Part shown: piece after piece, positions 21,659-62,008 of the stretch
How the letters are laid out: each line of letters begins with the position of its first letter
Numbering within the stretch: the first letter of the stretch is position 1
Virus record (IMG/VR): IMGVR_UViG_3300012933_000388
Coordinates: 1 to 64,000 of that record
From: a virus
Lineage: Duplodnaviria; Heunggongvirae; Uroviricota; Caudoviricetes
Reading direction: 5' to 3' (one strand)
Length of the DNA: 64,000 bases
The notes under the pieces: generated by a model
Database searches by the model: none
Seen by the model: the letters and a program-made list of their open reading frames with translations, nothing else
What the model was told of the DNA's origin: nothing
Made by a program: the position numbers and the translations under genes

Positions 21659-21942
21659 ATATCTACAAGGCACGCTATCGCAATGCTCTGAAGAAGGCTG
21701 CGAAGATCAATCGCTATATGAAGAAGGGTTATCATGTATTCTTTGATAGTAACCCCAATCACCTCGGGTTTGTTATAAAGGACAACCAGCTATTGCTACG
21801 TGCCGATCAAAACTGTTCTTATATCTTCTATGAAAATGATAAGGACTGGGATCATGGGTATTGGACTCCAATCAAGCAATGGAATGCTGAGTTCAACGAA
21901 CGATTCGAAGTATACAAACCAGAAGCAAAGGTTGTATTATGA
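21655..21942 (+). CDS. hypothetical protein
   Basis: ATGA overlap. Confidence 0.55.
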   Translation: MNIYKARYRNALKKAAKINRYMKKGYHVFFDSNPNHLGFVIKDNQLLLRADQNCSYIFYENDKDWDHGYWTPIKQWNAEFNERFEVYKPEAKVVL

Positions 21943-22169
21943 ACGAACGAATCCAAGAACTTGATAAGCAGGCTAAACTCTGGGCGATGGATAATACTAA
22001 TTTTCCAATATCGTCACATATTCCTGCAGGTTATACAGAAAAGTTCGCCGAGTTGCTCATAGAGGAATGCATTGGGCAGTGTTGGACGGTGTCTGAATTG
22101 GAATCGAACGGGTATGTTGTCAGCGAGTGTTCGAAGAAGATTAGAAAACATTTCGGAATTGAGCAATGA
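21939..22169 (+). CDS. FAELLxxEC paralog family protein
   Basis: MNERIQELDKQAK...EKFAELLIEECIGQC...IRKHFGIEQ. Confidence 0.6.
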   Translation: MNERIQELDKQAKLWAMDNTNFPISSHIPAGYTEKFAELLIEECIGQCWTVSELESNGYVVSECSKKIRKHFGIEQ

Positions 22170-22411
22170 TAACGAATGAAGATATCCACATTTTAGCTGA
22201 ACAGGCTAAAGTATATGCTAACCAGTTCGAGGAGCATTGGAATGATGGCCCCGATACTGATAAGATATTCAACCAAAAGTTCGCTGAGTTGATAGTTTGG
22301 GAAACATTTGCTGCGCTGTGGACAGATGAATGCATGCAGAGCGATTTGGCATTGGAACAGTTTAACCGTAACGTGAACAACATTAAAAAACATTTCGGGA
22401 TGAAGGAATGA
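22166..22411 (+). CDS. FAELLxxEC paralog family protein
   Basis: LAEQAKVYA...QKFAELIVWE...IKKHFGMKE. Confidence 0.6.
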   Translation: MITNEDIHILAEQAKVYANQFEEHWNDGPDTDKIFNQKFAELIVWETFAALWTDECMQSDLALEQFNRNVNNIKKHFGMKE

Positions 22412-25098: not shown

Positions 25099-25299
25099 AT
25101 GGATGAAAAACTAATTGAGCGATTGAAGAAACTTGCTAGTAGTGAATGCTTCTATGATGATGAGGACGAAGATAAGATCATTGACGATTATGCTGGTGGC
25201 AACGTTGACGATGCTTTCCAGGTAGGTGAGCATGCAGGTCAAGTATTGCTTGCTCGTGATATCCTGACGGCGTTAAAAGTTCAATGGTGGACGGAATGA
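25099..25299 (+). CDS. hypothetical acidic protein
   Basis: TAATATG junction. Confidence 0.5.
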   Translation: MDEKLIERLKKLASSECFYDDEDEDKIIDDYAGGNVDDAFQVGEHAGQVLLARDILTALKVQWWTE

Positions 25300-25547
25300 A
25301 TGATCGAATCGAAAAACTTGCTAAAGAGCATAGGTTAATTCATATTCACATGAGCACAGGCGAATATAACGATACATTGAAGAAGTTCGAAAAGCTCGCC
25401 GAGCTGATTATCCTAGAGTGTGCTAAGGTATGTGCGGATAATGGAATGCGTGCAGGTGGTGGGAATACCATAGTTGGTGAAACTTTCTTGGATGCATCGA
25501 AGCTGATCAGAGGCAATTTCGGATTAGACACATTTGGGATGTACTGA
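25296..25547 (+). CDS. FAELLxxEC paralog family protein
   Basis: MNDRIEKLAKE...FEKLAELIILECAKVC...NFGL. ATGA overlap chosen over ORF-track 25284. Confidence 0.6.
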   Translation: MNDRIEKLAKEHRLIHIHMSTGEYNDTLKKFEKLAELIILECAKVCADNGMRAGGGNTIVGETFLDASKLIRGNFGLDTFGMY

Positions 25548-25786
25548 TGAACGATCGCACCAAGCAACTTGCTGAGCAGGCTGATCTATATGCTCGGTCT
25601 GATAATTCCAGCATGCTATTCGAAAACTGGAAAAAACAATACACCGAAAGGTTGACTGAGTTGATTGTTCGGGAATGTGCTGATAAAATCGAGCATGATT
25701 ACAAATATGAACGCGGCGAAGATACAAAGTGGATCACAGCATTTGCTATTGCTAGTGATTTGAAGGCACATTTCGGGGTTCAATGA
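25547..25786 (+). CDS. FAELLxxEC paralog family protein
   Basis: MNDRTKQLAEQADLYA...RLTELIVRECADKI...KAHFGVQ. Confidence 0.6.
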   Translation: MNDRTKQLAEQADLYARSDNSSMLFENWKKQYTERLTELIVRECADKIEHDYKYERGEDTKWITAFAIASDLKAHFGVQ

Positions 25787-26013: not shown

Positions 26014-26211
26014 ATGAAGTATAATGTAAAGAAGTTCCATGCTATCCTAGCAAAGGCACATTTGGAGATTGGTCCAAATGCAGATACAACGGCTTTGGCG
26101 GATAAGTTTGCTGAGTTGCTTGTGAGAGAATGTATCGATGTGTTATCGGAAGACGATGGGGCTACTCATCACGAGCAGTTGTTGCTCAATCATTTTGGAG
26201 TGAAACAATGA
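26014..26211 (+). CDS. FAELLxxEC paralog family protein
   Basis: LADKFAELLVRECIDVL...LLNHFGVKQ. Confidence 0.6.
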   Translation: MKYNVKKFHAILAKAHLEIGPNADTTALADKFAELLVRECIDVLSEDDGATHHEQLLLNHFGVKQ

Positions 26212-26613: not shown

Positions 26614-27141
26614 TCAATATCTTCTTAGATAGTCCTTAACCTCAGGACTTCTACCCCATACCCAGCCTTCGGGTAATTCGCGCTTTCGCCCCTCTGATCC
26701 AGTAATAGGATGATGACACCACTTCAATCCAGTCGTAGTCGGCTTACCCATACGAGCCATGGCAACAAGAGCCTTACCCATAGCAGACTTACGACTTCCC
26801 CTAGCATTACTAGGCTTACCACGCTTAGCAATAGCCATCTTCGCCTTAGTCTCATCAGACATAGTCTTACCGGTATTAGCTAACTTAACAGCAGCAACCA
26901 TCTTCATCTTCTCATCTTCAGTGAAGTATTTCCATCCCCACTTCTTCTTTACAATAGCATCCTCATAGACATCAGAGACATTATATTGCTTCTTGAGACG
27001 ATCAATAACACTAGCATAATTGCCAGAATCTTTGATCATTGCTACCTTTTCCCATGCCCGACCATGATCGTTGTAAAATTGTTTATCGCCCTTATCGGAC
27101 GTTCTGAGCGTTCTATCCCGGAGGTAAACAGTGATAAGCAT
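26614..27141 (-). CDS. homing-endonuclease-like DNA-binding protein (NUMOD3-type repeats), no recognisable nuclease domain
   Basis: Opposite strand to the surrounding array. GKTMSDETKAKMAIAKRGKP and GSRKSAMGKALVAMARMGKP NUMOD3-like repeats, plus a C-terminal LPEGWVWGR tail as in T4 Seg/Mob proteins. No GIY-YIG or HNH motif is visible. Confidence 0.5.
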   Translation of the reverse strand: MLITVYLRDRTLRTSDKGDKQFYNDHGRAWEKVAMIKDSGNYASVIDRLKKQYNVSDVYEDAIVKKKWGWKYFTEDEKMKMVAAVKLANTGKTMSDETKAKMAIAKRGKPSNARGSRKSAMGKALVAMARMGKPTTTGLKWCHHPITGSEGRKRELPEGWVWGRSPEVKDYLRRY

Positions 27142-27232
27142 ACGTATATTCCATAATTGATTAATCCTAATATATAGGAAACAATGTATTTTTATGAGAA
27201 ATACTCGTATTACTTCTTGCAGATATTAATAC

Positions 27233-27253
27233 CGCATCTTAAACTAGTATGTA
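27233..27253. repeat. 21-nt direct repeat copy 1 (CGCATCTTAAACTAGTATGTA)
   Basis: Repeated at 27306-27326 with one mismatch and 73-nt spacing. Lies in ORF-free DNA upstream of the minus-strand HEG-like gene. Confidence 0.8.
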
Positions 27254-27305
27254 CGGGAATATAGAATGATGTGCGGGAAAATAGTTCAGTCGTACAGTAT
27301 ATGCG

Positions 27306-27326
27306 CGCGTCTTAAACTAGTATGTA
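27306..27326. repeat. 21-nt direct repeat copy 2 (CGCGTCTTAAACTAGTATGTA)
   Basis: See copy 1. Confidence 0.8.
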
Positions 27327-27370
27327 GCCCCTGCAGTCGACTCTAGGGATAGACCAAAGTGGTCCAGCAA

Positions 27371-27628
27371 TCAGCAGTAGTTCGCTTCACATAGCAGGAA
27401 AGACTCCTCCATAACTGCATCCAAGTCAACGCTAGGCTGTGTCATCATTAGCTGGCAGAGTACGCGCGGAAAGATGTAGCATGTTTGTGTCCCGTGTAGC
27501 TCAGTGCATGACACTAAGTCAGCAGGCAGCTTCTTTACAGTGAAAACGCTACCAGCCTTTAGTGTTAACGTGTTGCTGATTTTGTGTTCAGTTTTCAGCG
27601 TTGAGTACCAAATTTTAGCCATATTCAT
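27371..27628 (-). CDS. hypothetical protein
   Basis: Minus-strand ORF with AAGGATGA SD region, downstream of minus-strand promoter 27748-27776. Confidence 0.45.
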   Translation of the reverse strand: MNMAKIWYSTLKTEHKISNTLTLKAGSVFTVKKLPADLVSCTELHGTQTCYIFPRVLCQLMMTQPSVDLDAVMEESFLLCEANYC

Positions 27629-27660
27629 CCTTGTTCAGTCAAAAGTGCCAGTTTCATTCT

Positions 27661-27686
27661 GGAAACAAAATAGCCACTCTGCCCCC
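27661..27686. repeat. GGAAACAAAA-nn-GCCA-n-GCCCCC motif copy 1
   Basis: GGAAACAAAATAGCCACTCTGCCCCC. Related copies are at 27695-27717 and 29752-29777. Confidence 0.7.
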
Positions 27687-27694
27687 ACAAACCT

Positions 27695-27717
27695 GGAAAC
27701 AAAAGCGCCACTGATCC
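27695..27717. repeat. GGAAACAAAA motif copy 2
   Basis: GGAAACAAAAGCGCCACTGATCC. Confidence 0.6.
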
Positions 27718-27803: not shown

Positions 27804-28022
27804 TCACTTTGTAGTACTATATGTGTATACGCCAGAAGGCTTACCAAAGATATTATTTCCATACACTTCCACTCTAACGGTCTTGCCATTTCCGAATGGA
27901 TTAATGCCATATTTGAATGCATTTCGGAATGTTTTATAGCCACTGATAATACAGCGGTTATTCATTCCTACCTCATCATAGCTACCATCTGCATTCTGCT
28001 TAGTCACCAAATAGCTAGTCAT
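27804..28022 (-). CDS. hypothetical protein (72 aa)
   Basis: AAGGAG SD 9 nt upstream of ATG 28022. The ORF-track N-terminal extension was rejected. Confidence 0.55.
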   Translation of the reverse strand: MTSYLVTKQNADGSYDEVGMNNRCIISGYKTFRNAFKYGINPFGNGKTVRVEVYGNNIFGKPSGVYTYSTTK

Positions 28023-28026
28023 TGAT

Positions 28027-28146
28027 TCATTCTCCTTCAAATGCATTGTCGCCATATGTGTCAAACTCAGTACCCTGGTTAGCCCAATAGTCGTACTCTT
28101 CACACAGTGCCACTAATTCTTCCAACTCTTGATCGATATTGCTCAT
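28027..28146 (-). CDS. small acidic protein (39 aa)
   Basis: Starts 1 nt after the stop of 28147-28317. MSNIDQELEELVALCEEYDYWANQGTEFDTYGDNAFEGE. Confidence 0.35.
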   Translation of the reverse strand: MSNIDQELEELVALCEEYDYWANQGTEFDTYGDNAFEGE

Positions 28147-28317
28147 TTACTTCCCCTGGTTATAAATGTCGTTTTCTAAATCACAAAACAGCGATTCAGT
28201 GCCATTGACTAGATCTAGTTCACTTTCATCGAAAATGCCTAATCTTTTGCCATGCCAAATCATTCCGAGAACTAACGAGACTTGCTGCTCGTTTAGTGTT
28301 ACTGTGATCTCTTTCAT
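28147..28317 (-). CDS. small hypothetical protein (56 aa)
   Basis: AGGAGA SD 5 nt upstream. First gene after minus-strand promoter 28340-28368. Confidence 0.45.
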   Translation of the reverse strand: MKEITVTLNEQQVSLVLGMIWHGKRLGIFDESELDLVNGTESLFCDLENDIYNQGK

Positions 28318-28339
28318 CGTTATCTCCTATTGAACCACG

Positions 28340-28368
28340 ATTATCTGACAAAAACGAAAGTTGGTCAA
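28340..28368 (-). promoter_or_regulatory. early promoter cassette, minus strand
   Basis: Minus strand reads TTGACC-N17-GATAAT (ttgaccaactttcgtttttgtcagataat), the same family as the plus-strand cassettes. Confidence 0.55.
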
Positions 28369-28528
28369 CATAGGCGATTAGTATCAGACTGAGCTGTACG
28401 CTTATTCTAAAAGTCATTTGTCCGCAGCCGCCGTCCACCCCAGTTGCTTTCGAATGACCCTATTATACATGGTTTTGGGAAGTCGGCAACTAGGCTGTAA
28501 GTATCAGACTAGAGTTGAAGGGTACTGG

Positions 28529-28557
28529 TTGTACAAATTCCAAAACTATTGTACAAT
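28529..28557 (+). promoter_or_regulatory. early promoter cassette (island variant)
   Basis: TTGTAC-N17-TACAAT, spacer aaattccaaaactattg. Confidence 0.5.
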
Positions 28558-28578
28558 AGTGTTTTAGGAGATAAAAAA

Positions 28579-28917
28579 ATGAATAAAGTTGTTTTTGGTT
28601 TTGGTGTGAGTGTTGATTTTATTAAAAAGAATGTTGATTTTGATTTTGAATTTGAGGGTAGTGGTGTATATGAGTTTGTTGGTGGTAGTGGTGAAATATA
28701 TGGTTATGAGAAGATTAGTAATAATAATGAAGTTGAATTGATGAATGTGGATGATATTCTAAATTCTATTGTTGATGAAGATTTTAGTGAAAAAGATATT
28801 AACAAATTGAAAGAGTTTGTTTTTAGTGATTTTGATGATGATTTGGGTTGTGAGAAAATGAGGTATGTTTGTTGTTATGGTGAGGATGATTTTAGAGAAT
28901 ATTATTATGTGAAATAA
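28579..28917 (+). CDS. acidic hypothetical protein encoded by a nearly C-free ORF
   Basis: TAGGAG SD then ATG 28579. Only 3 cytosines in the ORF, and the product lacks A, P, T, H and Q. N-terminal MNKVVFGFGV resembles 29337 and 30209 ORF products. Confidence 0.55.
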   Translation: MNKVVFGFGVSVDFIKKNVDFDFEFEGSGVYEFVGGSGEIYGYEKISNNNEVELMNVDDILNSIVDEDFSEKDINKLKEFVFSDFDDDLGCEKMRYVCCYGEDDFREYYYVK

Positions 28918-28923
28918 TAACAT

Positions 28924-28980
28924 ACTAAAATGTAAGCTTATTTTAAAAAAGTTGTACAAAATTGAAATTTGTATTATAAT
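28924..28980 (+). repeat. 57-nt direct repeat copy 1 containing promoter TTGTAC-N17-TATAAT (28952-28980)
   Basis: actaaaatgtaagcttattttaaaaaagttgtacaaaattgaaatttgtattataat is almost identical to 29246-29303. Confidence 0.8.
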
Positions 28981-29025
28981 ATATTTGTAATTTGATAAAA
29001 TGTAAACTTTTTAAAAGGGGATAGT

Positions 29026-29208
29026 ATGAAAGTAGCAAAAGTTGTGTTGAACATTGAAGTGTCAATTAATGAAAATGATTATAATGATTTGATGGCAAAT
29101 TTGAAAGATGTTTGTGGGTTGACTAATAAGTGTGACTTAGAAAATTATATTAGTGATGGTTTAGTGTATGATATTGAGAAAAATAATAGTAAGTTTTTGT
29201 TTGATTAA
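29026..29208 (+). CDS. acidic hypothetical protein (C-poor ORF)
   Basis: AAGGGGA SD. 6 cytosines in 183 nt. Confidence 0.5.
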   Translation: MKVAKVVLNIEVSINENDYNDLMANLKDVCGLTNKCDLENYISDGLVYDIEKNNSKFLFD

Positions 29209-29214
29209 AAGTGG

Positions 29215-29238
29215 GAGGGACACGAAAGTGTCCTTTCT
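29215..29238 (+). terminator. rho-independent terminator
   Basis: GGGACAC-gaaa-GTGTCC followed by tttct. Confidence 0.55.
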
Positions 29239-29245
29239 ATACTTT

Positions 29246-29303
29246 ACTAAAATGTAAGCTTATTTGAAAAAAAGTTGTACAAAATTGAAATTTGTATTAT
29301 AAT
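29246..29303 (+). repeat. 58-nt direct repeat copy 2 containing promoter TTGTAC-N17-TATAAT (29275-29303)
   Basis: Differs from copy 1 by one substitution and one extra A. Confidence 0.8.
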
Positions 29304-29336
29304 TGGTTTTCTGTTTAAATGAAAAAGGAATTTGAA

Positions 29337-29714
29337 ATGAATACAAAAGTGTTTAGTTTTGGTGTGGATGAAGATTCGTTAACTTTTGAAACAGAATTTG
29401 ATTCTTTAGAGTCTTATTTTAAAGTGGAAGGAATTCGCTATTGTGGCTATTTCTTAGACAAATATAATACTGAGGTAGTCAATAGTGTTACTGTTCAAGA
29501 TAAAGAGGAACTTTTTGATTATGATGAAGGTGAGTTAGAATTAGCTAAGTTTGATGAAATGGTAGCTAAGTATGATTCATTTTTGAAAAATAATAGTGAT
29601 TATGTGTTAGTCAATTATTGTATTGAATATGATATTTCTTGGATATTAATGAGTAAAGCTGATTATGCTAAGTTTTTAGAATTGTGTGAACTAGAAGTAG
29701 CAAACGAAGAATAA
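29337..29714 (+). CDS. acidic hypothetical protein, paralog of 28579-28917
   Basis: AAAAGGAA SD then ATG 29337. MNTKVFSFGVDEDS parallels MNKVVFGFGVSVDF. Confidence 0.55.
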   Translation: MNTKVFSFGVDEDSLTFETEFDSLESYFKVEGIRYCGYFLDKYNTEVVNSVTVQDKEELFDYDEGELELAKFDEMVAKYDSFLKNNSDYVLVNYCIEYDISWILMSKADYAKFLELCELEVANEE

Positions 29715-29718
29715 AATT

Positions 29719-29742
29719 GGGAACCGAAAGGTTCCCTTTTTT
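29719..29742 (+). terminator. rho-independent terminator
   Basis: GGGAACC-gaaa-GGTTCCC followed by tttttt. Confidence 0.75.
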
Positions 29743-29751
29743 ATCTCTATC

Positions 29752-29777
29752 GGAAACAAAAGTGCCAATCGCCCCCG
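29752..29777. repeat. GGAAACAAAA motif copy 3
   Basis: GGAAACAAAAGTGCCAATCGCCCCC, in the same orientation as copies at 27661 and 27695. Confidence 0.7.
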
Positions 29778-29810
29778 GCCGAGTAAGCTTACACTTTGAT
29801 TGGTTATTGG

Positions 29811-29839
29811 TTGACCAAATTCCAAAACTGTGTGATAAT
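29811..29839 (+). promoter_or_regulatory. early promoter cassette
   Basis: TTGACC-N17-GATAAT, preceded by ttggttattgg. Confidence 0.6.
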
Positions 29840-29868
29840 TCAGTCATCGATTAAATGAAAGGTCTGTT

Positions 29869-30132
29869 ATGACAAAGTTTTTGGTTGAGGTTGTTTCGAT
29901 TGAAGATGGTGAGTATTATTCTGATAACAATGTTTCTGGATCTACTGTGAATGTGACATTACAACGTGGTAGTGACTTTGCTAGTTGTGATCAGATTTTG
30001 TTTTGGGAAGCAACTGATCAAGAAGAGTTAAACGATCTGTTCGATGAGTGGGTCGATTTGGCTATCGGTGGTGAGGAAGGCTATAGTGCTATGATCACTG
30101 AAAATGGTGTTACAAAAATGTATTCTCAATAA
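29869..30132 (+). CDS. hypothetical acidic early protein
   Basis: Single ORF between two cassettes. SD AAAGG. Confidence 0.6.
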   Translation: MTKFLVEVVSIEDGEYYSDNNVSGSTVNVTLQRGSDFASCDQILFWEATDQEELNDLFDEWVDLAIGGEEGYSAMITENGVTKMYSQ

Positions 30133-42882: not shown

Positions 42883-43025
42883 TGAAAAGCATGAAGCAAG
42901 CAGCTAATTTTAAGATGCGTGGTAGAATTACCATGCGTTGCCATTGCCGCTGCTGCGAGGTTTTTAATCCGAAGTGGGCATATCGTATGAAAATGGCTGC
43001 CAAGGATATAAAAGAATTGTTGTAA
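42882..43025 (+). CDS. small basic Cys-rich protein (47 aa)
   Basis: TAATG junction. CHCRCC motif. Ends immediately before the tmRNA acceptor piece. Confidence 0.35.
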   Translation: MKSMKQAANFKMRGRITMRCHCRCCEVFNPKWAYRMKMAAKDIKELL

Positions 43026-43080
43026 TCCCTTCAAAGAGAAGGACTTCTGGACGCGGGTTCGACTCCCGCCATCTCCACCA
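43026..43080 (+). ncRNA. ssrA: tmRNA acceptor piece (3' half of a permuted ssrA gene); 5' boundary uncertain
   Basis: GCGGG-TTCGACT-CCCGC T-arm, 3' acceptor strand CATCTCC and encoded ACCA (43077-43080). Complementary to GGGGATG at 43219. Confidence 0.8.
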
Positions 43081-43218
43081 AAAGTAATCACCGAAGTGAC
43101 TAGGAATAAAAGCGGTCATCGAGTTAGGGCATCAGGTCAAGACTGTGTTAGTAGTGTGGACAGCCTCCCTAACCGACCACTAAGGCGAGTGGTTGAGAAT
43201 GCAACGATTACTTTTGAT
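43081..43218 (+). other. structured intervening segment of the permuted tmRNA precursor
   Basis: AAAGTAATC (43081-89) pairs with GATTACTTT (43206-14). Internal helices GTTAGGG/CCCTAAC and ACCACT/AGTGGT. Confidence 0.6.
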
Positions 43219-43455
43219 GGGGATGCCATGGTTTCGACAGGGGTAGATATTAGAGACGGCAACACGGTAGGCGATGACCGCAAATCAAGCAAATAAAAGT
43301 AACTGCAAACGAAAGCTCTTACGCATTGGCAGCCTAAACGCTGACTAGGGTTTCGGATGGTTTCCTCGTAACAGAATAACCATCCACTAATATATCAGAC
43401 ACGTTGCCCATTAGAGGCCCTGTATGGTCTAGCAGTACCATCAAAGAAACTGCTA
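43219..43455 (+). ncRNA. ssrA: tmRNA coding piece (5' half of the permuted ssrA gene); 3' boundary uncertain
   Basis: GGGGATGCCATGGTTTCGACAGGGG 5' end. Tag ORF GCAAACGAAAGCTCTTACGCATTGGCAGCCTAA (43305-43337, ANESSYALAA*). Helix 43355-62/43378-85 and H-type pseudoknot 43424-43455. Confidence 0.8.
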
Positions 43456-43644: not shown

Positions 43645-43701
43645 GGCTTGTTAACCCCAATGATTCGCTAGTGCCACTTTTGTGGTGAGTACACATGCCA
43701 G

Positions 43702-43755: not shown

Positions 43756-44328
43756 ATGCATTCAACAGCTGTAAACGCTGTCGATAAGACGGTGGTACAA
43801 CTTATCAGGGCCGTGTGCTTTGTTATTGGTGTAACTGTCGTTATATCTGCTTTAAGACTCGCTATTGACTATCGTACTGAAAATACAGTTGCGCCAGTAG
43901 TCAATACATCCGCAAGAGAAATCGAAACCCAGCTTACGTGCCTAGCACGGAACATTTACTGGGAAGCTGCATCCGAACCTTTTGAAGGCAAGGTCGCTGT
44001 AGCACAAGTCACAATGAACCGCATGAATAGCGGTAAGTTCCCAGACACAGTCTGTGGAGTTGTCCACCAGAAGACGACTGTGTATAATAAGATCGTCTGC
44101 CAATTCTCGTGGCTATGTGAAAATAACTATCGTACACGTCCCATACACCGTAAGATGTATGAGGAAAGTGAAGAAGTTGCTAAGATGGTGATGTTAGAGG
44201 GCTTCCGTTTGAAGACATTGAACGATGCTTTGTATTATCACGCTGATTATGTCAACCCACGATGGAAGTTAGACAAAGTTACGCAGATTGGTCGTCATAT
44301 TTTCTATAAGGAAAAGAGCAATGGATAA
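43756..44328 (+). CDS. SleB-type cell wall hydrolase (Hydrolase_2) endolysin with N-terminal membrane anchor
   Basis: TAGGAGG SD. N-terminal TM IRAVCFVIGVTVVISALRLAI. NIYWEAASEPFEGKVAVAQVTMNR...CGVVHQ...QFSW family pattern. Confidence 0.7.
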   Translation: MHSTAVNAVDKTVVQLIRAVCFVIGVTVVISALRLAIDYRTENTVAPVVNTSAREIETQLTCLARNIYWEAASEPFEGKVAVAQVTMNRMNSGKFPDTVCGVVHQKTTVYNKIVCQFSWLCENNYRTRPIHRKMYEESEEVAKMVMLEGFRLKTLNDALYYHADYVNPRWKLDKVTQIGRHIFYKEKSNG

Positions 44329-51926: not shown

Positions 51927-53369
51927 ATGGCAAACAAATATACACAATATGGCGCCGCAGTAGCTGGTGCTGTTGCGATTCCTGCTGCTGTTAGTGGTAT
52001 TAAGGCCGCGTCTACTGCCTGGAATGCGTTTGGCGGCGCACAAAGTCAGATTGCTCAATCAGTTGATGCAGGCGGCACAGCAGCCGATGCGCTCGGAGCT
52101 ATGTCAAGCTCAGCCGTTGATGCTGGAACCTCGGCTATGGGGTCGGCGTTAAGTTCCACACTTAACAATCCTGCGTTCCTTACGTCCATCGGTGTGGGCC
52201 TCGTCGGTCTTGCTCTAGGGTCTGGATCGAAGACTCCTTCTCTCAATCTACCAAATTTGGCAGCTACTGCGGCTGTTGCGCTAAGCGTTAGTTCAATGCT
52301 TAAGCAAGGCAAAGCGGCCGCAGCAGCCAATGAGCGTGCCGCGGCAGCACGCGGTGGCGCTTTAACTTCTCCATCTAACTTCAAGACGGTCGCAGCAAGC
52401 GATCCGAACGTTGCAGTTATGAATGAAAGACAGAAAGGAGTTACACTCCAGATGTCGTTCCCGAAGACGCTCAATTCAGATTATTGGATGCGCTTCTCGG
52501 TCCGTAAATATAGTCGCTCCACGTCTCAGGACAATGCAGCTAGCACGTTATCTGATTTCCACACAATGATAAAGCTACCGTTACCTACCAATTTGGTAGA
52601 CGCGTTGAAGCTTTCATATCAGGAAGTCGGGCTAGGGATGTTTGGGGGGCCTGGTATGCAAGCTGGCGATGCGGCATATGAAGCATTCAAGAATAGCGGG
52701 GGATCTACGGGCGATGCACTGGGTGCCGCAGCACGTGCCGGAGCCGGTAAAATGTCCACTCTGCTAGGTCAGGATGGGGTCAAGGCAGCGTTAGCTCGTA
52801 AAATGCTAACAAATAGTATGCCAGCAGTTGCAACTGCAATGGACATGATCACTGGTAATGCTCCTAACCCACACATGGCTGTGACTTTCAATGGCGTAAA
52901 TTTAAAGAAGCACCAATTCTCATGGCGCCTATCGCCAGATAACTATGCAGAGAGTAGAGAGCTTGAAAATATCATAAGACAGCTACAAGCTGCAGCACTG
53001 CCATGGACTGAGGGGGAGTTTGCATTAATGCTTCAATTCCCTGACGTTGTTATTGTTGAAATGAATCCAAGCAACTTAATACCATTCAAGCCATGTGCAA
53101 TTGACTCGGTTGGTATTAATTATGCCCCTAACGGTGTTCCTTCATTCTTCAGAGCAGATAACCCATCCAATGATGATGGTAAGAGATATCCAACTGAAGT
53201 AGAGCTGACGATTGTGCTACGTGAATTGGATATCCATACTGGTAACATGCCATTCTATGAGGAGGCACGTAAAGGTCAGATGGAGTTCTATGAGGGAGCT
53301 ACGCCAACATCCGCAACTCAAACATCCGAGGCTACACAGGCTCGTGATGATAGCATACAAAGCGCATAA
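51927..53369 (+). CDS. baseplate-tail tube junction protein candidate (gp48/gp54-like)
   Basis: Ala/Gly/Ser-rich N-terminus. C-terminal MAVTFNGVNLKKHQFSWRLSPDN..ESRELENIIRQL resembles tube-fold proteins. First gene of the baseplate operon. Confidence 0.4.
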   Translation: MANKYTQYGAAVAGAVAIPAAVSGIKAASTAWNAFGGAQSQIAQSVDAGGTAADALGAMSSSAVDAGTSAMGSALSSTLNNPAFLTSIGVGLVGLALGSGSKTPSLNLPNLAATAAVALSVSSMLKQGKAAAAANERAAAARGGALTSPSNFKTVAASDPNVAVMNERQKGVTLQMSFPKTLNSDYWMRFSVRKYSRSTSQDNAASTLSDFHTMIKLPLPTNLVDALKLSYQEVGLGMFGGPGMQAGDAAYEAFKNSGGSTGDALGAAARAGAGKMSTLLGQDGVKAALARKMLTNSMPAVATAMDMITGNAPNPHMAVTFNGVNLKKHQFSWRLSPDNYAESRELENIIRQLQAAALPWTEGEFALMLQFPDVVIVEMNPSNLIPFKPCAIDSVGINYAPNGVPSFFRADNPSNDDGKRYPTEVELTIVLRELDIHTGNMPFYEEARKGQMEFYEGATPTSATQTSEATQARDDSIQSA

Positions 53370-53371
53370 CC

Positions 53372-54235
53372 ATGTCACGTTATTTTGAAAACTTTAATAC
53401 TGCCCAATATAATGGGGAGATTTGTAGAGTGCTTACACATCGCGCAGGTATTACTCGCGATGTTATGAGCCGTGCATCTGTATTTTATCCATACCAAACC
53501 CGTGAGGGCGAGCGTCCTGATACGTTGTCGCATCTATACTACGACGATTCGGCTATGGAATGGTTGGTGTTCTTTGCCAATGGCATTATCGATCCATATT
53601 ATGGGTGGTATCTGACTACAGAACAGTTCAATCAATATATTATCAGTAAATATGGTTCGCTCGTTGAGGCTCAGCTAAAGATTCATCACTACCAAGTCGA
53701 TTGGACAAATGATAGCCGCAGACTTACTATTGCAGCATACAATGCATTAGACAGTGTAGCTCCTATCAACCTCAAGCGCTACTGGGCACCCGTACTGAAC
53801 GATTATGGTAGCGTCGTATTTTACCAGCGCGCTGCAGTGGAACTAATATCTACAACCAACAAAGTTTTGAAGCTTAGCGTTACTAGTACAGCAGGATTCG
53901 AAGTTGGTGAATTGGTTAGCCAGCTTAATGGAGATACAGTATCTGGATATGGCGAGATTGTAGCCATGGATGATATTAGTATCACTATTCAAAATATCAC
54001 CGGGGTGTTCATTGGTGGTACGGCCATTACTGGATTCACTACAGCAACTCAGACCATTCCCACAACGGTGACTCTACTAACAGAGAGCATTCCATCAGTT
54101 GAGCAATCCTACTGGCGTGCAATTTCAATATACGATTATGAGGAACTGCTAAATGAGCAGCGTAAGACTCTACGTATGATTGACAAGCGATATGCAGAGC
54201 AAGCGCAACTCAACCTACAGGCTGTAATGAAGTAA
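53372..54235 (+). CDS. gp53: baseplate wedge protein (T4 gp53-like)
   Basis: GERPDTLSHLYYDDSAMEWLVFFANGIIDPYYGWYLTTEQFNQYIISKYG parallels T4 gp53 ...YWVLLMCNDNYDPYYGWITSQEAAYQASIQKY. Confidence 0.65.
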   Translation: MSRYFENFNTAQYNGEICRVLTHRAGITRDVMSRASVFYPYQTREGERPDTLSHLYYDDSAMEWLVFFANGIIDPYYGWYLTTEQFNQYIISKYGSLVEAQLKIHHYQVDWTNDSRRLTIAAYNALDSVAPINLKRYWAPVLNDYGSVVFYQRAAVELISTTNKVLKLSVTSTAGFEVGELVSQLNGDTVSGYGEIVAMDDISITIQNITGVFIGGTAITGFTTATQTIPTTVTLLTESIPSVEQSYWRAISIYDYEELLNEQRKTLRMIDKRYAEQAQLNLQAVMK

Positions 54236-54236
54236 T

Positions 54237-55559
54237 ATGGCAGAATCTACACAGAACGTACTCGGCCGAGCAATTATCAAAGAGGCATACATCTATAACA
54301 AGGATGGGGTAACTCTATCAATCACAGACAATCTAGTGTCTGTTGAAATTTATGAAGACATTTACAATCCATTCGTGAGTTGTGAAATGATGCTCGTCGA
54401 TTATGACAGTCTTGCTAAGCAATTCCCATTAGTTGGAGAGGAATTCTTTAGATTCTCCTACAAGAGCATTGAGGGGAAGATTGTTACGTATGAATTTTTC
54501 TTAGGTACTAAAGACACAGCTGCTATGACGGAAACAAACGCCGCCAAAGCATATGTTCTTCGTGGTGTAACTAAGGAGCGTGCATTCGATACTGCTAAAA
54601 CTGTCAGTCGCGCGTTCGTAGGAACATATGCATCTATTGCTGGCCAGATATTTGACGACTTCATTAAGGTCGATAGTGACGGATATGGGTTTGATTTTGA
54701 ACCAAGCCGCGGCGTCACTAGATTTACTGTTCCTCAACTGAGTCCACTGCAAGCAATTGAGTATTGCAAGTCGCGTGCTATAGCTACTGGTGAGGCACGC
54801 ACACCATTCACATTCTTCCGTAGTTCTGAGGGATACTCGTTCACTTCCATTAGTGGTCTGTTTAACAGAAAAGGCTCTGAAGCATCGGCTGGCGTCACTC
54901 ACACATATGCAGCTCGTCAATTGCCGGCTGAATATGATGAGAAGTTATCTAATGGAACGAAGGTTGATATCGTCAAGTTTGATATCGCCTCATTCTATGA
55001 CACTACGGAGAAGATCGATCGTGGATCGTATAATGGCGACTGCTATTCTTTCGATCTCACTACCAAAGCATTCACGCTGAAGCAGAGATACAACCTTGTC
55101 GACCAAGGTAATAAATTCCAATTGGGTGGGCAAGGTTATATCAACCGAGCCGATTTTGCTGGATCGTTTGCAAATACTAGATGTGTTGCTTATTATGTTC
55201 CGACCGATTGTGCTTGGGAGATTAATGGCGATCAAAGTACACAGAAGGATCTATACCCTGACTATGTTGGTGAGATGTCTGCATACTCGAACCTAATATC
55301 GGAGTACAACATTCATTACACAATATATGGCGACTCGAATGTTACTGCTGGCCAGGTAATGAAAATCAACGTGCCACAATCACGTGAGCAAGCAGGCAAG
55401 GGAACAAATCGCGGAACTCAGGATAAGATGTATTCGGGATCTTTCCTATGTGCTCGAACAGTGCATACTTTTAATTTTAATGAAAACGTGGACTACTACG
55501 TACATATTAGCGCAATCAATGGCGCACGTAACCACAGTATTGAGGATCTAAGAACATGA
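54237..55559 (+). CDS. gp27: baseplate hub protein (T4 gp27-like)
   Basis: Size and position upstream of the gp5-like gene. The C-terminal region GDSNVTAGQVMKINVP...FLCARTVHTFN resembles the gp27 C-terminus. Confidence 0.5.
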   Translation: MAESTQNVLGRAIIKEAYIYNKDGVTLSITDNLVSVEIYEDIYNPFVSCEMMLVDYDSLAKQFPLVGEEFFRFSYKSIEGKIVTYEFFLGTKDTAAMTETNAAKAYVLRGVTKERAFDTAKTVSRAFVGTYASIAGQIFDDFIKVDSDGYGFDFEPSRGVTRFTVPQLSPLQAIEYCKSRAIATGEARTPFTFFRSSEGYSFTSISGLFNRKGSEASAGVTHTYAARQLPAEYDEKLSNGTKVDIVKFDIASFYDTTEKIDRGSYNGDCYSFDLTTKAFTLKQRYNLVDQGNKFQLGGQGYINRADFAGSFANTRCVAYYVPTDCAWEINGDQSTQKDLYPDYVGEMSAYSNLISEYNIHYTIYGDSNVTAGQVMKINVPQSREQAGKGTNRGTQDKMYSGSFLCARTVHTFNFNENVDYYVHISAINGARNHSIEDLRT

Positions 55560-56458
55560 TAGAAATGGGTAAAATGGGGTTTGTGTGGTGGTTTGGTATA
55601 GTGGAGGACGTAATGGACCCACTTCAGATCGGCCGTGTAAAGGTTCGAGTGTACCACTTCTACTCGCTAAACGATTCGGTGCTACCTACTGATGAACTGC
55701 CATGGGCTCACGTCGTGATGCCAACAACCAGTGCAAGCTACCAAGGCAAAGGATGGAGTCCTACGTTCATCCGCCCAGATAGTACCGTGTTCGGGTTCTT
55801 CGTTGATGGCCCAGAAGGACAGATGCCGATTGTGTTAGGAACGTATCCTGGCATTCCACAACCCAATCCAGACTTCACAGATACTGATAACCTCAGCGTA
55901 GACACACATGATGTTAGTCAACTCGCTCGTGGTGTTAATAAGCTAGCTACAGCAAAAGAAGAGATCCGCTCGAAGGAGCGCTCGAAGGAGTCTGAGCCGA
56001 TGGAGCCGCCTCCATCAAATACGTTCAGAGCACAATACCCATATAACAAAGTGTTTGAGTCAGAACGTGGTCATGCCGTTGAAATGGATGACACACCAGG
56101 CGCCGAACGAATCCATGTATACCACAATAGTGGCTCATTTATTGAGATGAATACTGGATTGACGATCGATAAAACTAACGGTATTCGAGTCAACACTGCG
56201 ACTGTTGGGCATTGGACTAAGAGTAACGGAGATATGTTCCTCGTTGCGGACGGAGCATTGCAGATATTCGCCAAAGGCGCAATAACGATATCTTCGGAAA
56301 AACAAATATCGATGAATGCCCCACTGATAAATATAAGCGGCACGATTGCTACATCGATTACTGGGGGAGCAACTCTTTCTATGTCGTCTACAGGTATGAC
56401 GACTGTTAGTGGATTAGTTGCGTTGTATCTGAACCCAGGCGCAGTAAGTGCAGCATAA
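55556..56458 (+). CDS. gp5: baseplate central spike (gp5/VgrG-like OB-fold + beta-helix), no lysozyme domain
   Basis: FGIVEDVMDPLQIGRVKVRVYHF...LPWAHV OB-fold N-terminus. Repetitive beta-helical C-terminus. Only 300 aa. Confidence 0.7.
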   Translation: MIEMGKMGFVWWFGIVEDVMDPLQIGRVKVRVYHFYSLNDSVLPTDELPWAHVVMPTTSASYQGKGWSPTFIRPDSTVFGFFVDGPEGQMPIVLGTYPGIPQPNPDFTDTDNLSVDTHDVSQLARGVNKLATAKEEIRSKERSKESEPMEPPPSNTFRAQYPYNKVFESERGHAVEMDDTPGAERIHVYHNSGSFIEMNTGLTIDKTNGIRVNTATVGHWTKSNGDMFLVADGALQIFAKGAITISSEKQISMNAPLINISGTIATSITGGATLSMSSTGMTTVSGLVALYLNPGAVSAA

Positions 56459-56475
56459 GAATAAACGGAGATTGT

Positions 56476-56748
56476 ATGGTAAGACCAGTAGGACGAGTTG
56501 GAGTAGATTTAGCGGGGGGCGTACTTGCTACCCCACTGTATCCTAACGTCACCGTCAACGGTGCCCCAATCGCCGTCGTTAAAACAAAAATTACACCACA
56601 TGGGCCTTCGCCTCACAACGTATCGATGATGGCTACTGGTAGTCCTAATGTATTTGTTGGGGCAGCAAGAACTCCAGTGTGCTCTGCGGGCGATATTGCA
56701 ACTTGCGGACACCCTCTAATATCAAAATCAAACGTGTTTGTAAACTAA
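56476..56748 (+). CDS. PAAR-repeat spike tip protein (gp5.4-like)
   Basis: 90 aa. HGPSPHN...GSPNVFVGAARTPVCSAGDIATCGH pattern. Confidence 0.7.
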   Translation: MVRPVGRVGVDLAGGVLATPLYPNVTVNGAPIAVVKTKITPHGPSPHNVSMMATGSPNVFVGAARTPVCSAGDIATCGHPLISKSNVFVN

Positions 56749-56749
56749 C

Positions 56750-57178
56750 ATGACAATAACAACAGTAGCAGATAGATACACATCGACTGACATTAAGACC
56801 GAGCTATTCAGCGATCTAGGCGTCAACTTTCAATTGCATCCCGGTAAGCGGGATCTCGTTCGTTTAACGGATGAGAGCTCTGTCAAGCGATCGATTGTTA
56901 ATTTGTTATTGACTGACTATCACGAGCGATTCCATCAGCCATATCTTGGCGCTAACATTAAGCATTTGTTGTTTGAACCGGCCACTGAAGACACATTGTC
57001 CCTACTAAGACATAGAATTTTGACTTGTATTAGTAAATTCGAGCCACGCGCAAATGTAATCTCGTTGAGAGTGACTACAACCCCTGATGAGCACCACGTT
57101 CAAGTGAATATGGTGTTTAGTGTAGTGAACACCTCAACCCCTGTATCACTTAACCTCCTTCTTAATAGAGTACGATAA
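56750..57178 (+). CDS. gp25: baseplate wedge protein (GPW/gp25 family)
   Basis: VKRSIVNLLLTDYHERFHQPYLGANIKHLLFEP is the gp25 signature. Confidence 0.8.
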   Translation: MTITTVADRYTSTDIKTELFSDLGVNFQLHPGKRDLVRLTDESSVKRSIVNLLLTDYHERFHQPYLGANIKHLLFEPATEDTLSLLRHRILTCISKFEPRANVISLRVTTTPDEHHVQVNMVFSVVNTSTPVSLNLLLNRVR

Positions 57179-62006: not shown

Positions 62007-62008
62007 GC

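What the first reader, a model, noticed from the sequence alone, without database searches (positions are those of the whole stretch)
26614..27370. Reverse-strand homing-endonuclease-like gene without a nuclease domain, next to a 21-nt tandemly spaced repeat
ORF 26614-27141 interrupts a ~19-kb run of plus-strand genes. It has two NUMOD3-like helices (TMSDETKAKMAIAKRGKP and SRKSAMGKALVAMARMGKP) and the LPEGWVWGR tail typical of T4 Seg/Mob free-standing homing endonucleases. I cannot find GIY-YIG, HNH or LAGLIDADG motifs in the N-terminal 80 residues.

The 230 bp upstream of it (27142-27370) has no ORF. It carries CGC(A/G)TCTTAAACTAGTATGTA twice, 73 nt apart (27233 and 27306).

Possible explanations are a decayed mobile endonuclease, a domesticated DNA-binding regulator whose sites are the repeats, or a novel N-terminal nuclease fold.
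Basis: partly seen in the sequence, partly recalled or inferred. Interest (0 to 1): 0.5.

Follow-up and report, generated by a model that had tools for sequence, protein, structure and literature searches.

The report
Nuclease-less homing-endonuclease relative with phased sites
This phage gene encodes an intact, conserved relative of a homing endonuclease that keeps the DNA-gripping parts but has lost the recognisable DNA-cutting site, and it sits beside two strictly spaced DNA motifs that may be its binding sites.

Summary
ORF 26614-27141 (-) is real, and so is the repeat pair at 27233 and 27306, 73 nt apart.

The protein belongs to an unnamed, metagenome-only family of about 175 aa. It has roughly 50 full-length cluster representatives, constant length, and dN/dS of 0.12-0.35. 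It is therefore not a decaying gene.

Its C-terminal two thirds are homing-endonuclease DNA-binding parts: two NUMOD3 units plus a W-x-H-x-P...P-x-G-W-x-W-G-R module that is tandemly repeated in true GIY-YIG endonucleases. The N-terminal 60 residues fold as beta-beta-alpha-beta-alpha. They weakly resemble a stripped GIY-YIG domain in which the catalytic Arg helix is deleted and the catalytic Glu is replaced by Ile.

The repeat core (TAYWRGTTTAAGAYG) is invariant, with exactly 73-nt spacing, in eight further independent lineages whose synonymous sites are saturated. Only two exact copies occur in a 235-kb relative, so it is not a general promoter.

Three relatives that carry a paralog elsewhere keep the phased sites, and two of them demonstrably lack the adjacent gene. 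The protein-site link is therefore unproven.

Best reading: a domesticated, non-cleaving Seg-like DNA binder, possibly an I-TevI-style autoregulator. This is a new variant of a known kind, of moderate interest.

The parts
26614..27141 (-). CDS, 175 aa: nuclease-less Seg-like protein ('A-type' member of an unnamed family of about 175 aa)
26944..27141 (-). N-terminal domain (residues 1-66), beta-beta-alpha-beta-alpha-beta. Putative stripped GIY-YIG remnant. E31 is invariant and Y53 nearly invariant in 41 sequences. There is no catalytic Arg helix, and the catalytic Glu position is I46.
26815..26871 (-). NUMOD3 unit 1 (residues 91-109)
   Evidence: Pfam PF07460, 21.7 bits
26743..26805 (-). NUMOD3-like unit 2 (residues about 113-133)
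   Evidence: aligns to NUMOD3 repeats of GIY-YIG endonucleases with the family HMM
26626..26736 (-). C-terminal module (residues 136-172), G-x-x-W-C-H-x-P-x-x-G-x-E-x-R...L-P-x-G-W-x-W-G-R-x-P-E. The most conserved part between A- and B-type (53% identity).
27233..27253 (-). Proximal 21-nt repeat. Core CATACTAGTTTAAGATG reads on the gene's strand, 93 nt upstream of the ATG, followed by GCGG and TATTAA.
27306..27326 (-). Distal 21-nt repeat. Core CATACTAGTTTAAGACG, exactly 73 nt upstream of the proximal copy.
27166..27199 (-). Two further conserved blocks of the leader: TCTCATAAAAA (27189-27199) and CCTATATATTAGG (27166-27178, a short palindrome). Both are present in all A-type loci and absent from the gene-less L021.
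27371..27628 (-). Upstream same-strand ORF, 85 aa, conserved in L004 (84 aa). Its stop abuts the repeat region.
27642..27712 (.). Remnant of the iteron array (AAAGTGCCAGT, AAATAGCCACT, AAAGCGCCACT, and boundary repeats CTGGAAACAAAA at 27659 and 27693). This array has 8-13 copies in relatives.
27804..28317 (-). Two more minus-strand ORFs (99 aa and 56 aa) of the same block. Homologs flank the landmark in L021.

Best explanation
**What it is.** The ORF encodes an intact, selectively maintained member of an unnamed family of phage proteins of about 175 aa. The family descends from free-standing GIY-YIG (Seg-type) homing endonucleases.

**What it keeps and what it lacks.** It keeps the endonuclease DNA-recognition apparatus: two NUMOD3 minor-groove helices plus one W-x-H-x-P...P-x-G-W-x-W-G-R module. 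Its 60-residue N-terminal domain is a stripped GIY-YIG remnant. That remnant lacks the helix carrying the catalytic Arg, and it has Ile where the catalytic Glu should be.

**How it most likely works.** It most likely binds DNA sequence-specifically without cutting. The best candidate targets are the two asymmetric 17-21-bp sites, 93 and 166 nt upstream of its start codon. Their spacing is held at 73 bp, about 7 helical turns. Binding there would control transcription entering the gene, in the way I-TevI represses its own promoter through an operator. It might also organise the conserved non-coding landmark the sites belong to.

**Shown versus inferred.**
- Shown: family membership, purifying selection, endonuclease-type DNA-binding modules, absence of a recognisable nuclease motif, and conservation and phasing of the sites.
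- Inferred: the GIY-YIG origin of the N-domain (about 0.7), loss of cleavage (about 0.7), and that the sites are this protein's targets (about 0.4).
For: **Family and selection.**
- 21 close homologs of 174-177 aa, 89-35% identity.
- A profile search gives 861 hits, about 50 of them full-length representatives of 165-200 aa.
- dN/dS is 0.12-0.35 at dS 0.7-2.6.
- The N-domain is as conserved as the rest within A-type, 68% versus 68-72%.

**Endonuclease ancestry.**
- NUMOD3 in 37 of 41 members.
- The C-module aligns to tandem units in GIY-YIG proteins P0164 and P0091.
- Foldseek against viral models: the top hits are overwhelmingly Seg-like, GIY-YIG or other homing endonucleases, aligned over most of the length, E 2.8e-5 to 1e-2.
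- The HMM-HMM alignment places KYG..(Y/F)E(I/L) and the following helix on the KYG..F.F.ILE / E..YI motifs of 35 GIY-YIG domains (P 0.017). It shows a gap of about 20 residues where the Arg helix should be.
- The HMMER alignment to P0153 runs into its GIY-YIG domain.

**Sites.**
- The core is invariant and the spacing exactly 73 nt in the window, L001, L004, L007/L013, L009, L010, L035 and L038, while the spacer sequence is free.
- Only two exact copies occur in a 234.9-kb relative.
- There is no RNA structure or covariation.
- An asymmetric site of about 20 bp with an AT-rich core fits a monomeric NUMOD3-type binder (inference from I-TevI, PMC2988022).
- The P0014/P0017 protein subclade goes with the site variant GTACTGG.
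- A third copy overlaps the 5' end of another gene in L001 and L013. That is operator-like rather than promoter-like.
Against: - Two relatives (L021, spacing 85; L014, spacing 61) keep the phased sites without an adjacent gene. A third relative (L073) keeps three sites at 73/74 nt, but its stored locus ends before the position where a gene would lie. Their contigs carry only a 37-39% identical 'B-type' paralog, 12-34 kb away where both positions are known (L021 and L014 contigs). No sites lie next to that paralog.
- The sites lie too far upstream of the ATG to overlap a promoter placed just before the gene. No promoter has been mapped.
- E31 is invariant and Y53 nearly so in 41 sequences. This could mean a residual or altered active site.
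- No binding or cleavage experiment exists.
Confidence: 0.5

Rival explanations
1. The repeats are not this protein's sites. They belong to a conserved non-coding landmark: an iteron array, 2-3 phased 17-mers and an AT-rich stretch. Candidate functions for the landmark are a replication origin, tandem factor-dependent promoters, or sites for another protein. The NUMOD3 gene merely sits beside it, and its own targets lie elsewhere.
For: - The phased sites persist in L021 and L014, where the adjacent gene is absent, and in L073, a B-type genome whose stored locus ends before the position where a gene would lie.
- Each site is followed by 3-6 G/C and then a TATAAT-like hexamer, which is a promoter-like layout.
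- Iteron arrays of 8-13 copies with a 17-nt period lie 300-700 nt further upstream in L001, L007, L009 and L013.
Against: - Every A-type gene with upstream sequence available (9 lineages) has the pair at exactly 73 nt.
- The gene-less genomes still encode a paralog whose C-terminal DNA-binding module is 53% identical, and that paralog could occupy the sites.
- The third copy in L001 and L013 has no -10-like box.
- The iteron array has collapsed in the window and in L004, so it is not tightly coupled to the sites.
Confidence: 0.3
2. The protein is still an active, possibly mobile, endonuclease. Its shortened N-domain would be a minimal or re-wired GIY-YIG-type catalytic centre using, for example, invariant E31, Y/F6 and Y53. 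The repeats or nearby DNA would be its cleavage or recognition sites.
For: - E31 is invariant and Y53 is present in 39 of 40 residues at that column across 41 sequences down to 20% identity.
- The gene is present at this locus in some relatives and absent in others, and the family occupies two alternative loci. This recalls the patchiness of homing endonuclease genes.
- The orientation is opposite to neighbouring genes, like T4 segD (PMC2988022).
Against: - No nuclease family hit in 41 members.
- The GIY Tyr position is Phe in 14 of 41 sequences. The Arg helix is absent and the Glu position is Ile, Lys or Leu.
- Length and synteny stay constant across saturated divergence, with apparently one copy per genome. 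This does not fit a selfish element cycling through gain and decay.
Confidence: 0.12
3. The ORF is a decaying remnant of a homing endonuclease gene with no function, and the repeats are chance or a recent local duplication.
For: The canonical catalytic motifs are absent, and the Pfam NUMOD3 score in this one sequence is marginal.
Against: - The reading frame is intact in every homolog.
- dN/dS is 0.12-0.35.
- About 50 full-length cluster representatives exist.
- The repeats are conserved in all nine A-type lineages with upstream sequence and in three B-type genomes, while the spacer and synonymous sites have diverged.
Confidence: 0.02
4. The repeat region encodes a structured RNA or small peptides. 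Each copy reads L-K-L-V-C in a 26-aa plus-strand mini-ORF.
For: Two 26-aa ORFs (27184-27264 and 27266-27346) read the motif in the same frame.
Against: - RNAalifold gives about -2 kcal/mol and no supporting covariation on either strand.
- There is no Rfam match, and the leader fold z-score is -0.5.
- By reading the aligned sequences, the mini-ORFs have no start codon in L004 and differ in length and frame in other relatives.
Confidence: 0.02

Closest known systems
Free-standing GIY-YIG homing endonucleases of T4-like phages (SegA-G) and I-TevI / I-BmoI
   Same: - The layout is the same: a small N-terminal alpha/beta domain, a linker, NUMOD3 helices and a C-terminal DNA-binding module.
- The C-module and NUMOD3 units align to those of true GIY-YIG endonucleases.
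- Foldseek top hits are these proteins.
- The gene lies opposite to its neighbours, as T4 segD does (PMC2988022).
   Different: - There is no GIY-YIG Pfam match. The Arg helix is deleted, Glu is replaced by Ile, and the GIY Tyr is often Phe.
- The family has a constant length of about 175 aa, is under purifying selection, and appears to be single-copy per genome at one of two fixed loci.
- T4 SegD matches only in the NUMOD3 stretch.
- BLAST finds no full-length relative in 50,697 cultured-phage records: the window protein and one family member found nothing, and another matched only the NUMOD3 region of annotated homing endonucleases.
I-TevI acting as transcriptional autorepressor through an operator that resembles its homing site (PMC2988022)
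   Same: A NUMOD3-type DNA-binding domain used for site-specific binding without cleavage, upstream of its own gene. The site is asymmetric and about 20 bp long.
   Different: - I-TevI is still an active nuclease with one operator overlapping a mapped late promoter.
- Here the nuclease centre is gone. There are two (elsewhere three) phased sites 93 and 166 nt from the ATG. No promoter is mapped and binding is untested.
- The sites also exist without the adjacent gene.
WhiA (a degenerate LAGLIDADG homing-endonuclease scaffold used as a transcription factor; PMC3240954, PMC3384342)
   Same: Precedent for a homing-endonuclease fold that lost catalysis and is conserved as a DNA-binding regulator.
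   Different: WhiA comes from a different endonuclease class (LAGLIDADG plus HTH) and is bacterial and chromosomal. No sequence or fold relation was found or expected.
Iteron-type replication origins with an adjacent, autoregulated initiator gene (own knowledge of plasmid replicons)
   Same: The non-coding landmark has an array of short direct repeats, an AT-rich stretch and an adjacent DNA-binding-protein gene.
   Different: - Origin function was not tested.
- The iteron array has collapsed in this window and is separable from the phased 17-mers.
- The protein has no similarity to known initiators.

Membership tests
GIY-YIG homing endonuclease (Seg-like) | GIY-YIG catalytic domain with conserved Tyr (GIY), Tyr (YIG), Arg, Glu and Asn | tested here: not met
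   No PF01541 or PF19835 hit in 41 family members at E<=1. Profile alignment shows the Arg helix deleted and Glu replaced by I46. Position 6 is Y23/F14/I2.
GIY-YIG homing endonuclease (Seg-like) | GIY-YIG-type alpha/beta fold of the N-terminal domain | tested here: inconclusive
   - AF2 predicts beta-beta-alpha-beta-alpha-beta with pLDDT 81-90.
- Foldseek viral hits are endonucleases, E 2.8e-5.
- hhalign P 0.017, probability 2.7%.
GIY-YIG homing endonuclease (Seg-like) | C-terminal modular DNA-binding region (NUMOD3 and related modules) | tested here: met
   NUMOD3 at 21.7 bits versus a 20.4 cut-off, and in 37 of 41 members. The C-module aligns to tandem units of GIY-YIG proteins.
GIY-YIG homing endonuclease (Seg-like) | Sporadic presence among close relatives, and mobility by cleavage of gene-less alleles | tested here: inconclusive
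   The gene is present at the same locus in 9 lineages and absent from it in L021 and L014, whose contigs (like that of L073) have a paralog elsewhere. Cleavage and homing are not testable here.
Pfam NUMOD3 (PF07460) | Score at or above the gathering threshold | tested here: met
   21.7 bits versus 20.4, covering half of the model (positions 1-19 of 37). Family-level best E 4e-12.
I-TevI-like autorepressor | Operator bound by the protein that overlaps the promoter of its own gene | not testable with these tools
   Conserved phased sites lie upstream, each followed by a -10-like hexamer. No transcription start or binding data exist.
Structured RNA / Rfam family in the upstream region | Covariance-model hit or covariation-supported structure | tested here: not met
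General phage promoter class | Motif recurs upstream of many genes in the genome | tested here: not met
   Only the two copies occur in the 64-kb window, and only two exact copies in a 234.9-kb relative. By contrast, the early-type box GGWCTTATAATWGAGTC occurs 8 times.

The most novel reading that the evidence does not exclude
A homing-endonuclease lineage has been fully domesticated in a clade of uncultured T4-like phages of about 235 kb. It now serves as the site-specific organiser of a conserved non-coding landmark made of phased 17-mers at about 7-turn spacing, an iteron array and an AT-rich stretch. That landmark may be a replication origin or master control region. The A-type or B-type protein would act as its dedicated binding factor rather than as a selfish nuclease.
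Probability: 0.12. Interest if true: 0.75.

Novelty: new variant of a known kind. Interest (0 to 1): 0.5.

Why it matters
Homing endonucleases are usually viewed as selfish genes that are gained, decay and are lost. The well-documented domestications come from other classes, such as WhiA from LAGLIDADG and plant AP2 from HNH-AP2.

This family would be a GIY-YIG/NUMOD3 lineage kept for its DNA-recognition scaffold alone. It is widespread, with tens of 50%-identity clusters. It also comes with a ready-made candidate target: two asymmetric sites at fixed helical phase. The protein-DNA relationship is therefore directly testable.

It also flags a conserved non-coding landmark in a poorly known clade of large T4-like phages, whose promoters and origins are unmapped.

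NUMOD3-type modules are used in engineered nucleases such as I-TevI fusions. A naturally nuclease-free, compact, site-specific binder could be a useful part.

Tried and rejected
- **Cultured-phage relatives.** Megablast and tblastn of the locus and protein against INPHARED found nothing. tblastn with family member P0024 also found nothing, and P0050 matched only the NUMOD3 region of annotated endonucleases.
- **PDB sequence search.** Only noise. NCBIfam also gave noise.
- **PHROGs.** Only weak endonuclease hits over the NUMOD3 stretch. The neighbouring ORFs gave nothing.
- **afdb50 fold library.** Not available.
- **Global hhalign of the N-domain against GIY-YIG.** Gave nothing; only local mode aligned, and weakly.
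- **T4 SegD as a specific relative.** Only the NUMOD3 stretch aligns. My recollection that segD lies next to oriE was wrong: the review places it between genes 23 and 24.
- **RNA element.** Rejected.
- **Terminator in the spacer.** Strong hairpin plus T-run only in L035, L038 and L004, not in the window, so it is not the conserved feature.
- **Mini-ORFs reading LKLVC.** Not conserved (plus reading of the sequences).
- **Sigma-70 promoter scan.** No excess, and no hit at the repeats.
- **T4 late promoter TATAAATA.** Absent from the whole window. My tentative 'CATATA' late box turned out to pick up mainly the early-type box GGWCTTATAATWGAGTC, so I dropped it.
- **Gapped two-site scan of viral contigs.** After filtering, only L013, L014 and L073 were relevant.
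- **Long proteins that start with the C-terminal module.** No informative domains.
- **GC-skew profile.** It only mirrors the strand switch.
Full report
**1. Observation**

The ORF at 26614-27141 on the minus strand (175 aa, ATG) is present as described. Pfam finds one NUMOD3 unit at residues 91-109, scoring 21.7 bits against a cut-off of 20.4. PHROGs gives only weak 'homing endonuclease' hits over residues 67-131. The 229 nt upstream (27142-27370) hold no ORF longer than 28 aa.

The 21-mers CGCATCTTAAACTAGTATGTA (27233) and CGCGTCTTAAACTAGTATGTA (27306) are the only copies in the window. None of 100 dinucleotide shuffles gave two matches.

One correction is needed. The gene is the last of four minus-strand ORFs: 28147-28317, 27804-28103, 27371-27628 and 26614-27141. 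Together they interrupt a plus-strand run of small genes stretching from about 7 to 38 kb. The 85-aa ORF is conserved in L004, and the other two in L021.

**2. Genomic setting**

The window comes from a distant T4-like myovirus. It has gp6/gp7/gp8-type baseplate wedge proteins, and the best cultured match is Caulobacter phage Cr30 at 40% identity. Neither the locus nor the protein has any BLAST match in 50,697 cultured-phage records. Relatives are metagenomic contigs of up to about 235 kb.

**3. The protein family**

A word-indexed search found 21 homologs of 174-177 aa at 89-35% identity. Invariant residues are spread along the whole length. An exhaustive profile search found 861 proteins at E<=1e-3. 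About 50 of these are full-length representatives of 165-200 aa at the 50%-identity cluster level. The rest are long NUMOD3-repeat proteins.

Among seven A-type genes, dN/dS is 0.12-0.35 while dS is 0.7-2.6. The N-terminal domain is as conserved as the rest within this group, at 68% versus 68-72%. The gene is therefore functional and not a decaying remnant.

**4. Domain anatomy**

*DNA-binding part.* 37 of 41 family members hit NUMOD3 (best E 4e-12), and none hits any nuclease family. With a family HMM, both NUMOD3-like units align to true NUMOD3 repeats. The C-terminal module g-l-k-W-i-y-N-P-i-t-g-k-E-k-r...l-P-e-G-F-v-w-G-R aligns to units that occur once to three times in tandem in endonuclease-type NUMOD3 proteins; P0164 was shown to carry a GIY-YIG domain. 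Other profile hits (P0153, P0109, P0150, P0103, P0122) are NUMOD3 proteins with Pfam GIY-YIG domains.

*N-terminal part.* AlphaFold2 predicts a confident beta-beta-alpha-beta-alpha-beta domain for residues 1-60, with pLDDT 81-90, whether modelled in the whole protein or alone.
- Foldseek against viral models returns mostly Seg-like, GIY-YIG and other homing endonucleases as top hits, aligned over most of the length. E-values run from 2.8e-5 to 1e-2 and probability reaches 0.97.
- Three more GIY-YIG structures (9u75_A, 1ycz_A, 2wsh_A) are among the top 60 of 48,164 chains.
- A local HMM-HMM comparison of the N-domain with 35 GIY-YIG domains, taken from endonucleases found, gives P 0.017.

That last comparison aligns the family's (K/R)-x-K-Y-G-x-x-(Y/F)-E-(I/L) and the following helix to the KYG..F.F.ILE and E..YI motifs. 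With relaxed settings it pairs the first strand (V/I/F-Y/F-L) with GIY. It leaves a gap of about 20 residues where the helix with the catalytic Arg lies. It places I46 at the catalytic Glu position.

Position 6 (the GIY Tyr) is Tyr in 23 and Phe in 14 of 41 sequences. E31 is invariant, and Y53 is present in 39 of 40 sequences with a residue there.

I conclude, at about 0.7, that the N-domain is a stripped GIY-YIG remnant without the canonical active site. Each single line of evidence is weak, and the invariant Glu is unexplained.

**5. The repeats**

Read on the gene's strand, the core is CATA(C/T)(T/A)AGTTTAAGA(C/T)G. The same pair lies upstream of the gene in L001, L004/L005, L007/L013, L009 and L010, always exactly 73 nt apart start to start. 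More divergent A-type members carry the variant (C/G)GTACTGGTTTAAGACG twice, again 73 nt apart. These are P0017 at 53% identity and P0014 at 66%.

The 52-nt spacer is free to vary. Its content differs between lineages:
- In L035, L038 and L004 it holds a strong hairpin followed by a T-run.
- In the window, L001, L013 and L009 it holds none.

Length is therefore constrained, and sequence is not. There is no consensus RNA structure or covariation on either strand, no Rfam hit, and no unusually stable leader fold.

The exact motif occurs only twice in a 234.9-kb relative and only twice in this window. It is therefore a locus-specific element and not a promoter class. For comparison, an early-type box GGWCTTATAATWGAGTC recurs eight times before plus-strand genes.

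Each site is followed by 3-6 G/C and then a TATAAT-like hexamer. The layout is promoter-like, with the conserved core spanning roughly -30 to -19. A third copy (CATACTAGTTTAAGTTG) lies about 7 kb away in L001 and L013. It sits against the ribosome-binding site of a gene on the other strand and has no -10-like box. That behaviour suits an operator better than a promoter.

**6. Relatives without the adjacent gene**

L021 comes from a 222.8-kb contig and is syntenic with the window on the far side: it has homologs of 27804-28103, 28147-28317, 29319-29714 and 29869-30132. It has the two sites 85 nt apart but no gene after them. Similarity to gene-bearing loci ends about 30 nt after the proximal site.

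L014 has the pair 61 nt apart. L073 has three sites at 73 and 74 nt.

All three contigs carry a 'B-type' homolog at 37-39% identity elsewhere, 12-34 kb away in the two cases where both positions are known (L021 and L014). It is always the last gene after large tail-fibre-like genes, converging on a conserved minus-strand block that includes a ~385-aa gene (an AAA ATPase, followed by a DNA ligase, in L006). It has no motif copies nearby.

A pattern scan found only an A-type copy in the 234.9-kb contig and only a B-type copy in the 222.8-kb contig. This suggests one copy per genome at one of two loci. The C-terminal module is the part best conserved between the types, at 53% against 25% for the N-domain. 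A B-type protein could therefore recognise the same sites, but this is inference.

The observed spacings of 61, 73, 74 and 85 nt are all within about 2 nt of whole helical turns.

**7. Mechanism**

*Best-supported reading (0.5 overall).* This is a Seg-type endonuclease lineage that lost cleavage and is kept as a sequence-specific DNA-binding protein. The phased 17-21-bp sites are the best candidate targets for four reasons:
- They accompany every A-type gene examined.
- They are asymmetric, about 20 bp long and AT-rich at the core, as expected for a monomeric NUMOD3-type binder.
- Their spacing rather than their spacer is conserved, which suggests two bound proteins on one face of the helix.
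- One protein subclade (P0014/P0017) goes with one site variant.

The functional model is I-TevI, which binds an operator resembling its homing site and represses its own promoter without cutting (PMC2988022).

*Main rival (0.3).* The sites belong to the landmark itself and are used by something else. Persistence of the sites without the adjacent gene supports this. So does the neighbouring iteron array: 8-13 copies of AAAGTGC(C/T)ACT with a 17-nt period in L001, L007, L009 and L013, collapsed to a 34-nt remnant at 27659-27712 in the window.

*Other rivals.* An active, re-wired nuclease remains possible (0.12) because of the invariant E31. A pseudogene and an RNA or peptide element are effectively excluded.

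**8. Comparison and novelty**

The protein works like the DNA-binding half of a GIY-YIG homing endonuclease, and descent from that group is likely. It fails the defining test for membership as an endonuclease, because no catalytic motif is present. It should not be annotated 'homing endonuclease'.

Conceptually the closest cases are the I-TevI autorepressor function and WhiA, a catalytically dead LAGLIDADG scaffold used as a transcription factor (PMC3240954, PMC3384342). I found no description of a conserved nuclease-less GIY-YIG/NUMOD3 family in the searched literature. None of the Pfam, PHROGs or NCBIfam libraries holds a model for the N-domain.

I rate it a new variant of a known kind, with interest 0.5.

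Noticed in passing
window 42974-43397 (+): A phage-encoded permuted (two-piece) tmRNA of the betaproteobacterial type. Rfam RF04321 scores 147.5 bits and RF01850 140.1 bits. ARAGORN gives the tag peptide VTANESSYALAA. This is a clue to a betaproteobacterial host and an unusual cargo for a T4-like phage.
   Followed up: partly
L001 9229-9622; L007 5318-5546; L009 100-271; L013 7306-7566; window 27642-27712: An iteron-like array of 8-13 copies of AAAGTGC(C/T)ACT, commonly at 17-nt steps. It is bounded by CTGGAAACAAAAGT..ACTCTG and lies 300-700 nt upstream of the NUMOD3 gene in relatives. In this window the two boundary copies are only 34 nt apart, so the array is nearly deleted. It could be an origin, a partition site or a regulatory array.
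   Followed up: partly
window 30178, 31891, 32583, 33599, 34576, 36070, 36765, 40609 (+): A highly conserved box GG(A/T)CTTATAAT(A/T)GAGTC lies 31-66 nt upstream of plus-strand small genes. It is presumably the -10 region of this phage's early promoters. The NUMOD3 gene does not have it.
   Followed up: partly
whole window: The T4 late-promoter octamer TATAAATA does not occur once in 64 kb, although T4-type baseplate genes are present (51927-63769). Late promoters of this clade must differ.
   Followed up: partly
window 21939-22169, 22166-22411, 25284-25547, 25547-25786, 26014-26211 (+); also L013 and L021: A tandem paralog family of 65-90-aa proteins that share ...KFAEL(I/L)(I/V)xEC... and a C-terminal (K)HFG(V/I)(E/K)Q. 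There are at least five copies in the plus-strand run that converges on the NUMOD3 gene.
   Followed up: no
window 28001-30000: An AT-rich island (GC 0.32 against about 0.44) holds acidic small ORFs 28549-28917, 29026-29208 and 29319-29714. The last is nearly identical to an ORF in L021 (7246-7668), although the phages are otherwise diverged.
   Followed up: no
L001 2473-2489 and L013 886-902: A third copy of the motif (CATACTAGTTTAAGTTG, followed by GGGGG after 2-3 nt) lies about 7 kb from the pair. It directly abuts the Shine-Dalgarno and start region of a small gene on the opposite strand. No such copy exists in this window.
   Followed up: partly
L006 1821-6531; L026, L028, L032 around 3000: B-type homologs (35-41% identity) are always the last gene of a block of large tail-fibre-like genes (one with Mtd_N). 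Their start lies 1-7 nt after the preceding stop. The block converges on a conserved minus-strand gene block whose ~385-aa member is an AAA ATPase, followed by a DNA ligase, in L006.
   Followed up: partly
L073 3527-4063 (+): An HNH/AP2-like 178-aa ORF (motifs read by eye, no family search run) lies about 750 nt upstream of the triple phased sites in a B-type genome.
   Followed up: no
window 43668-43690: An inverted pair of the iteron-like 11-mer (CTAGTGCCACT / AAAGTGGCACT) lies about 270 nt downstream of the tmRNA gene, upstream of gene 43756-44328.
   Followed up: no
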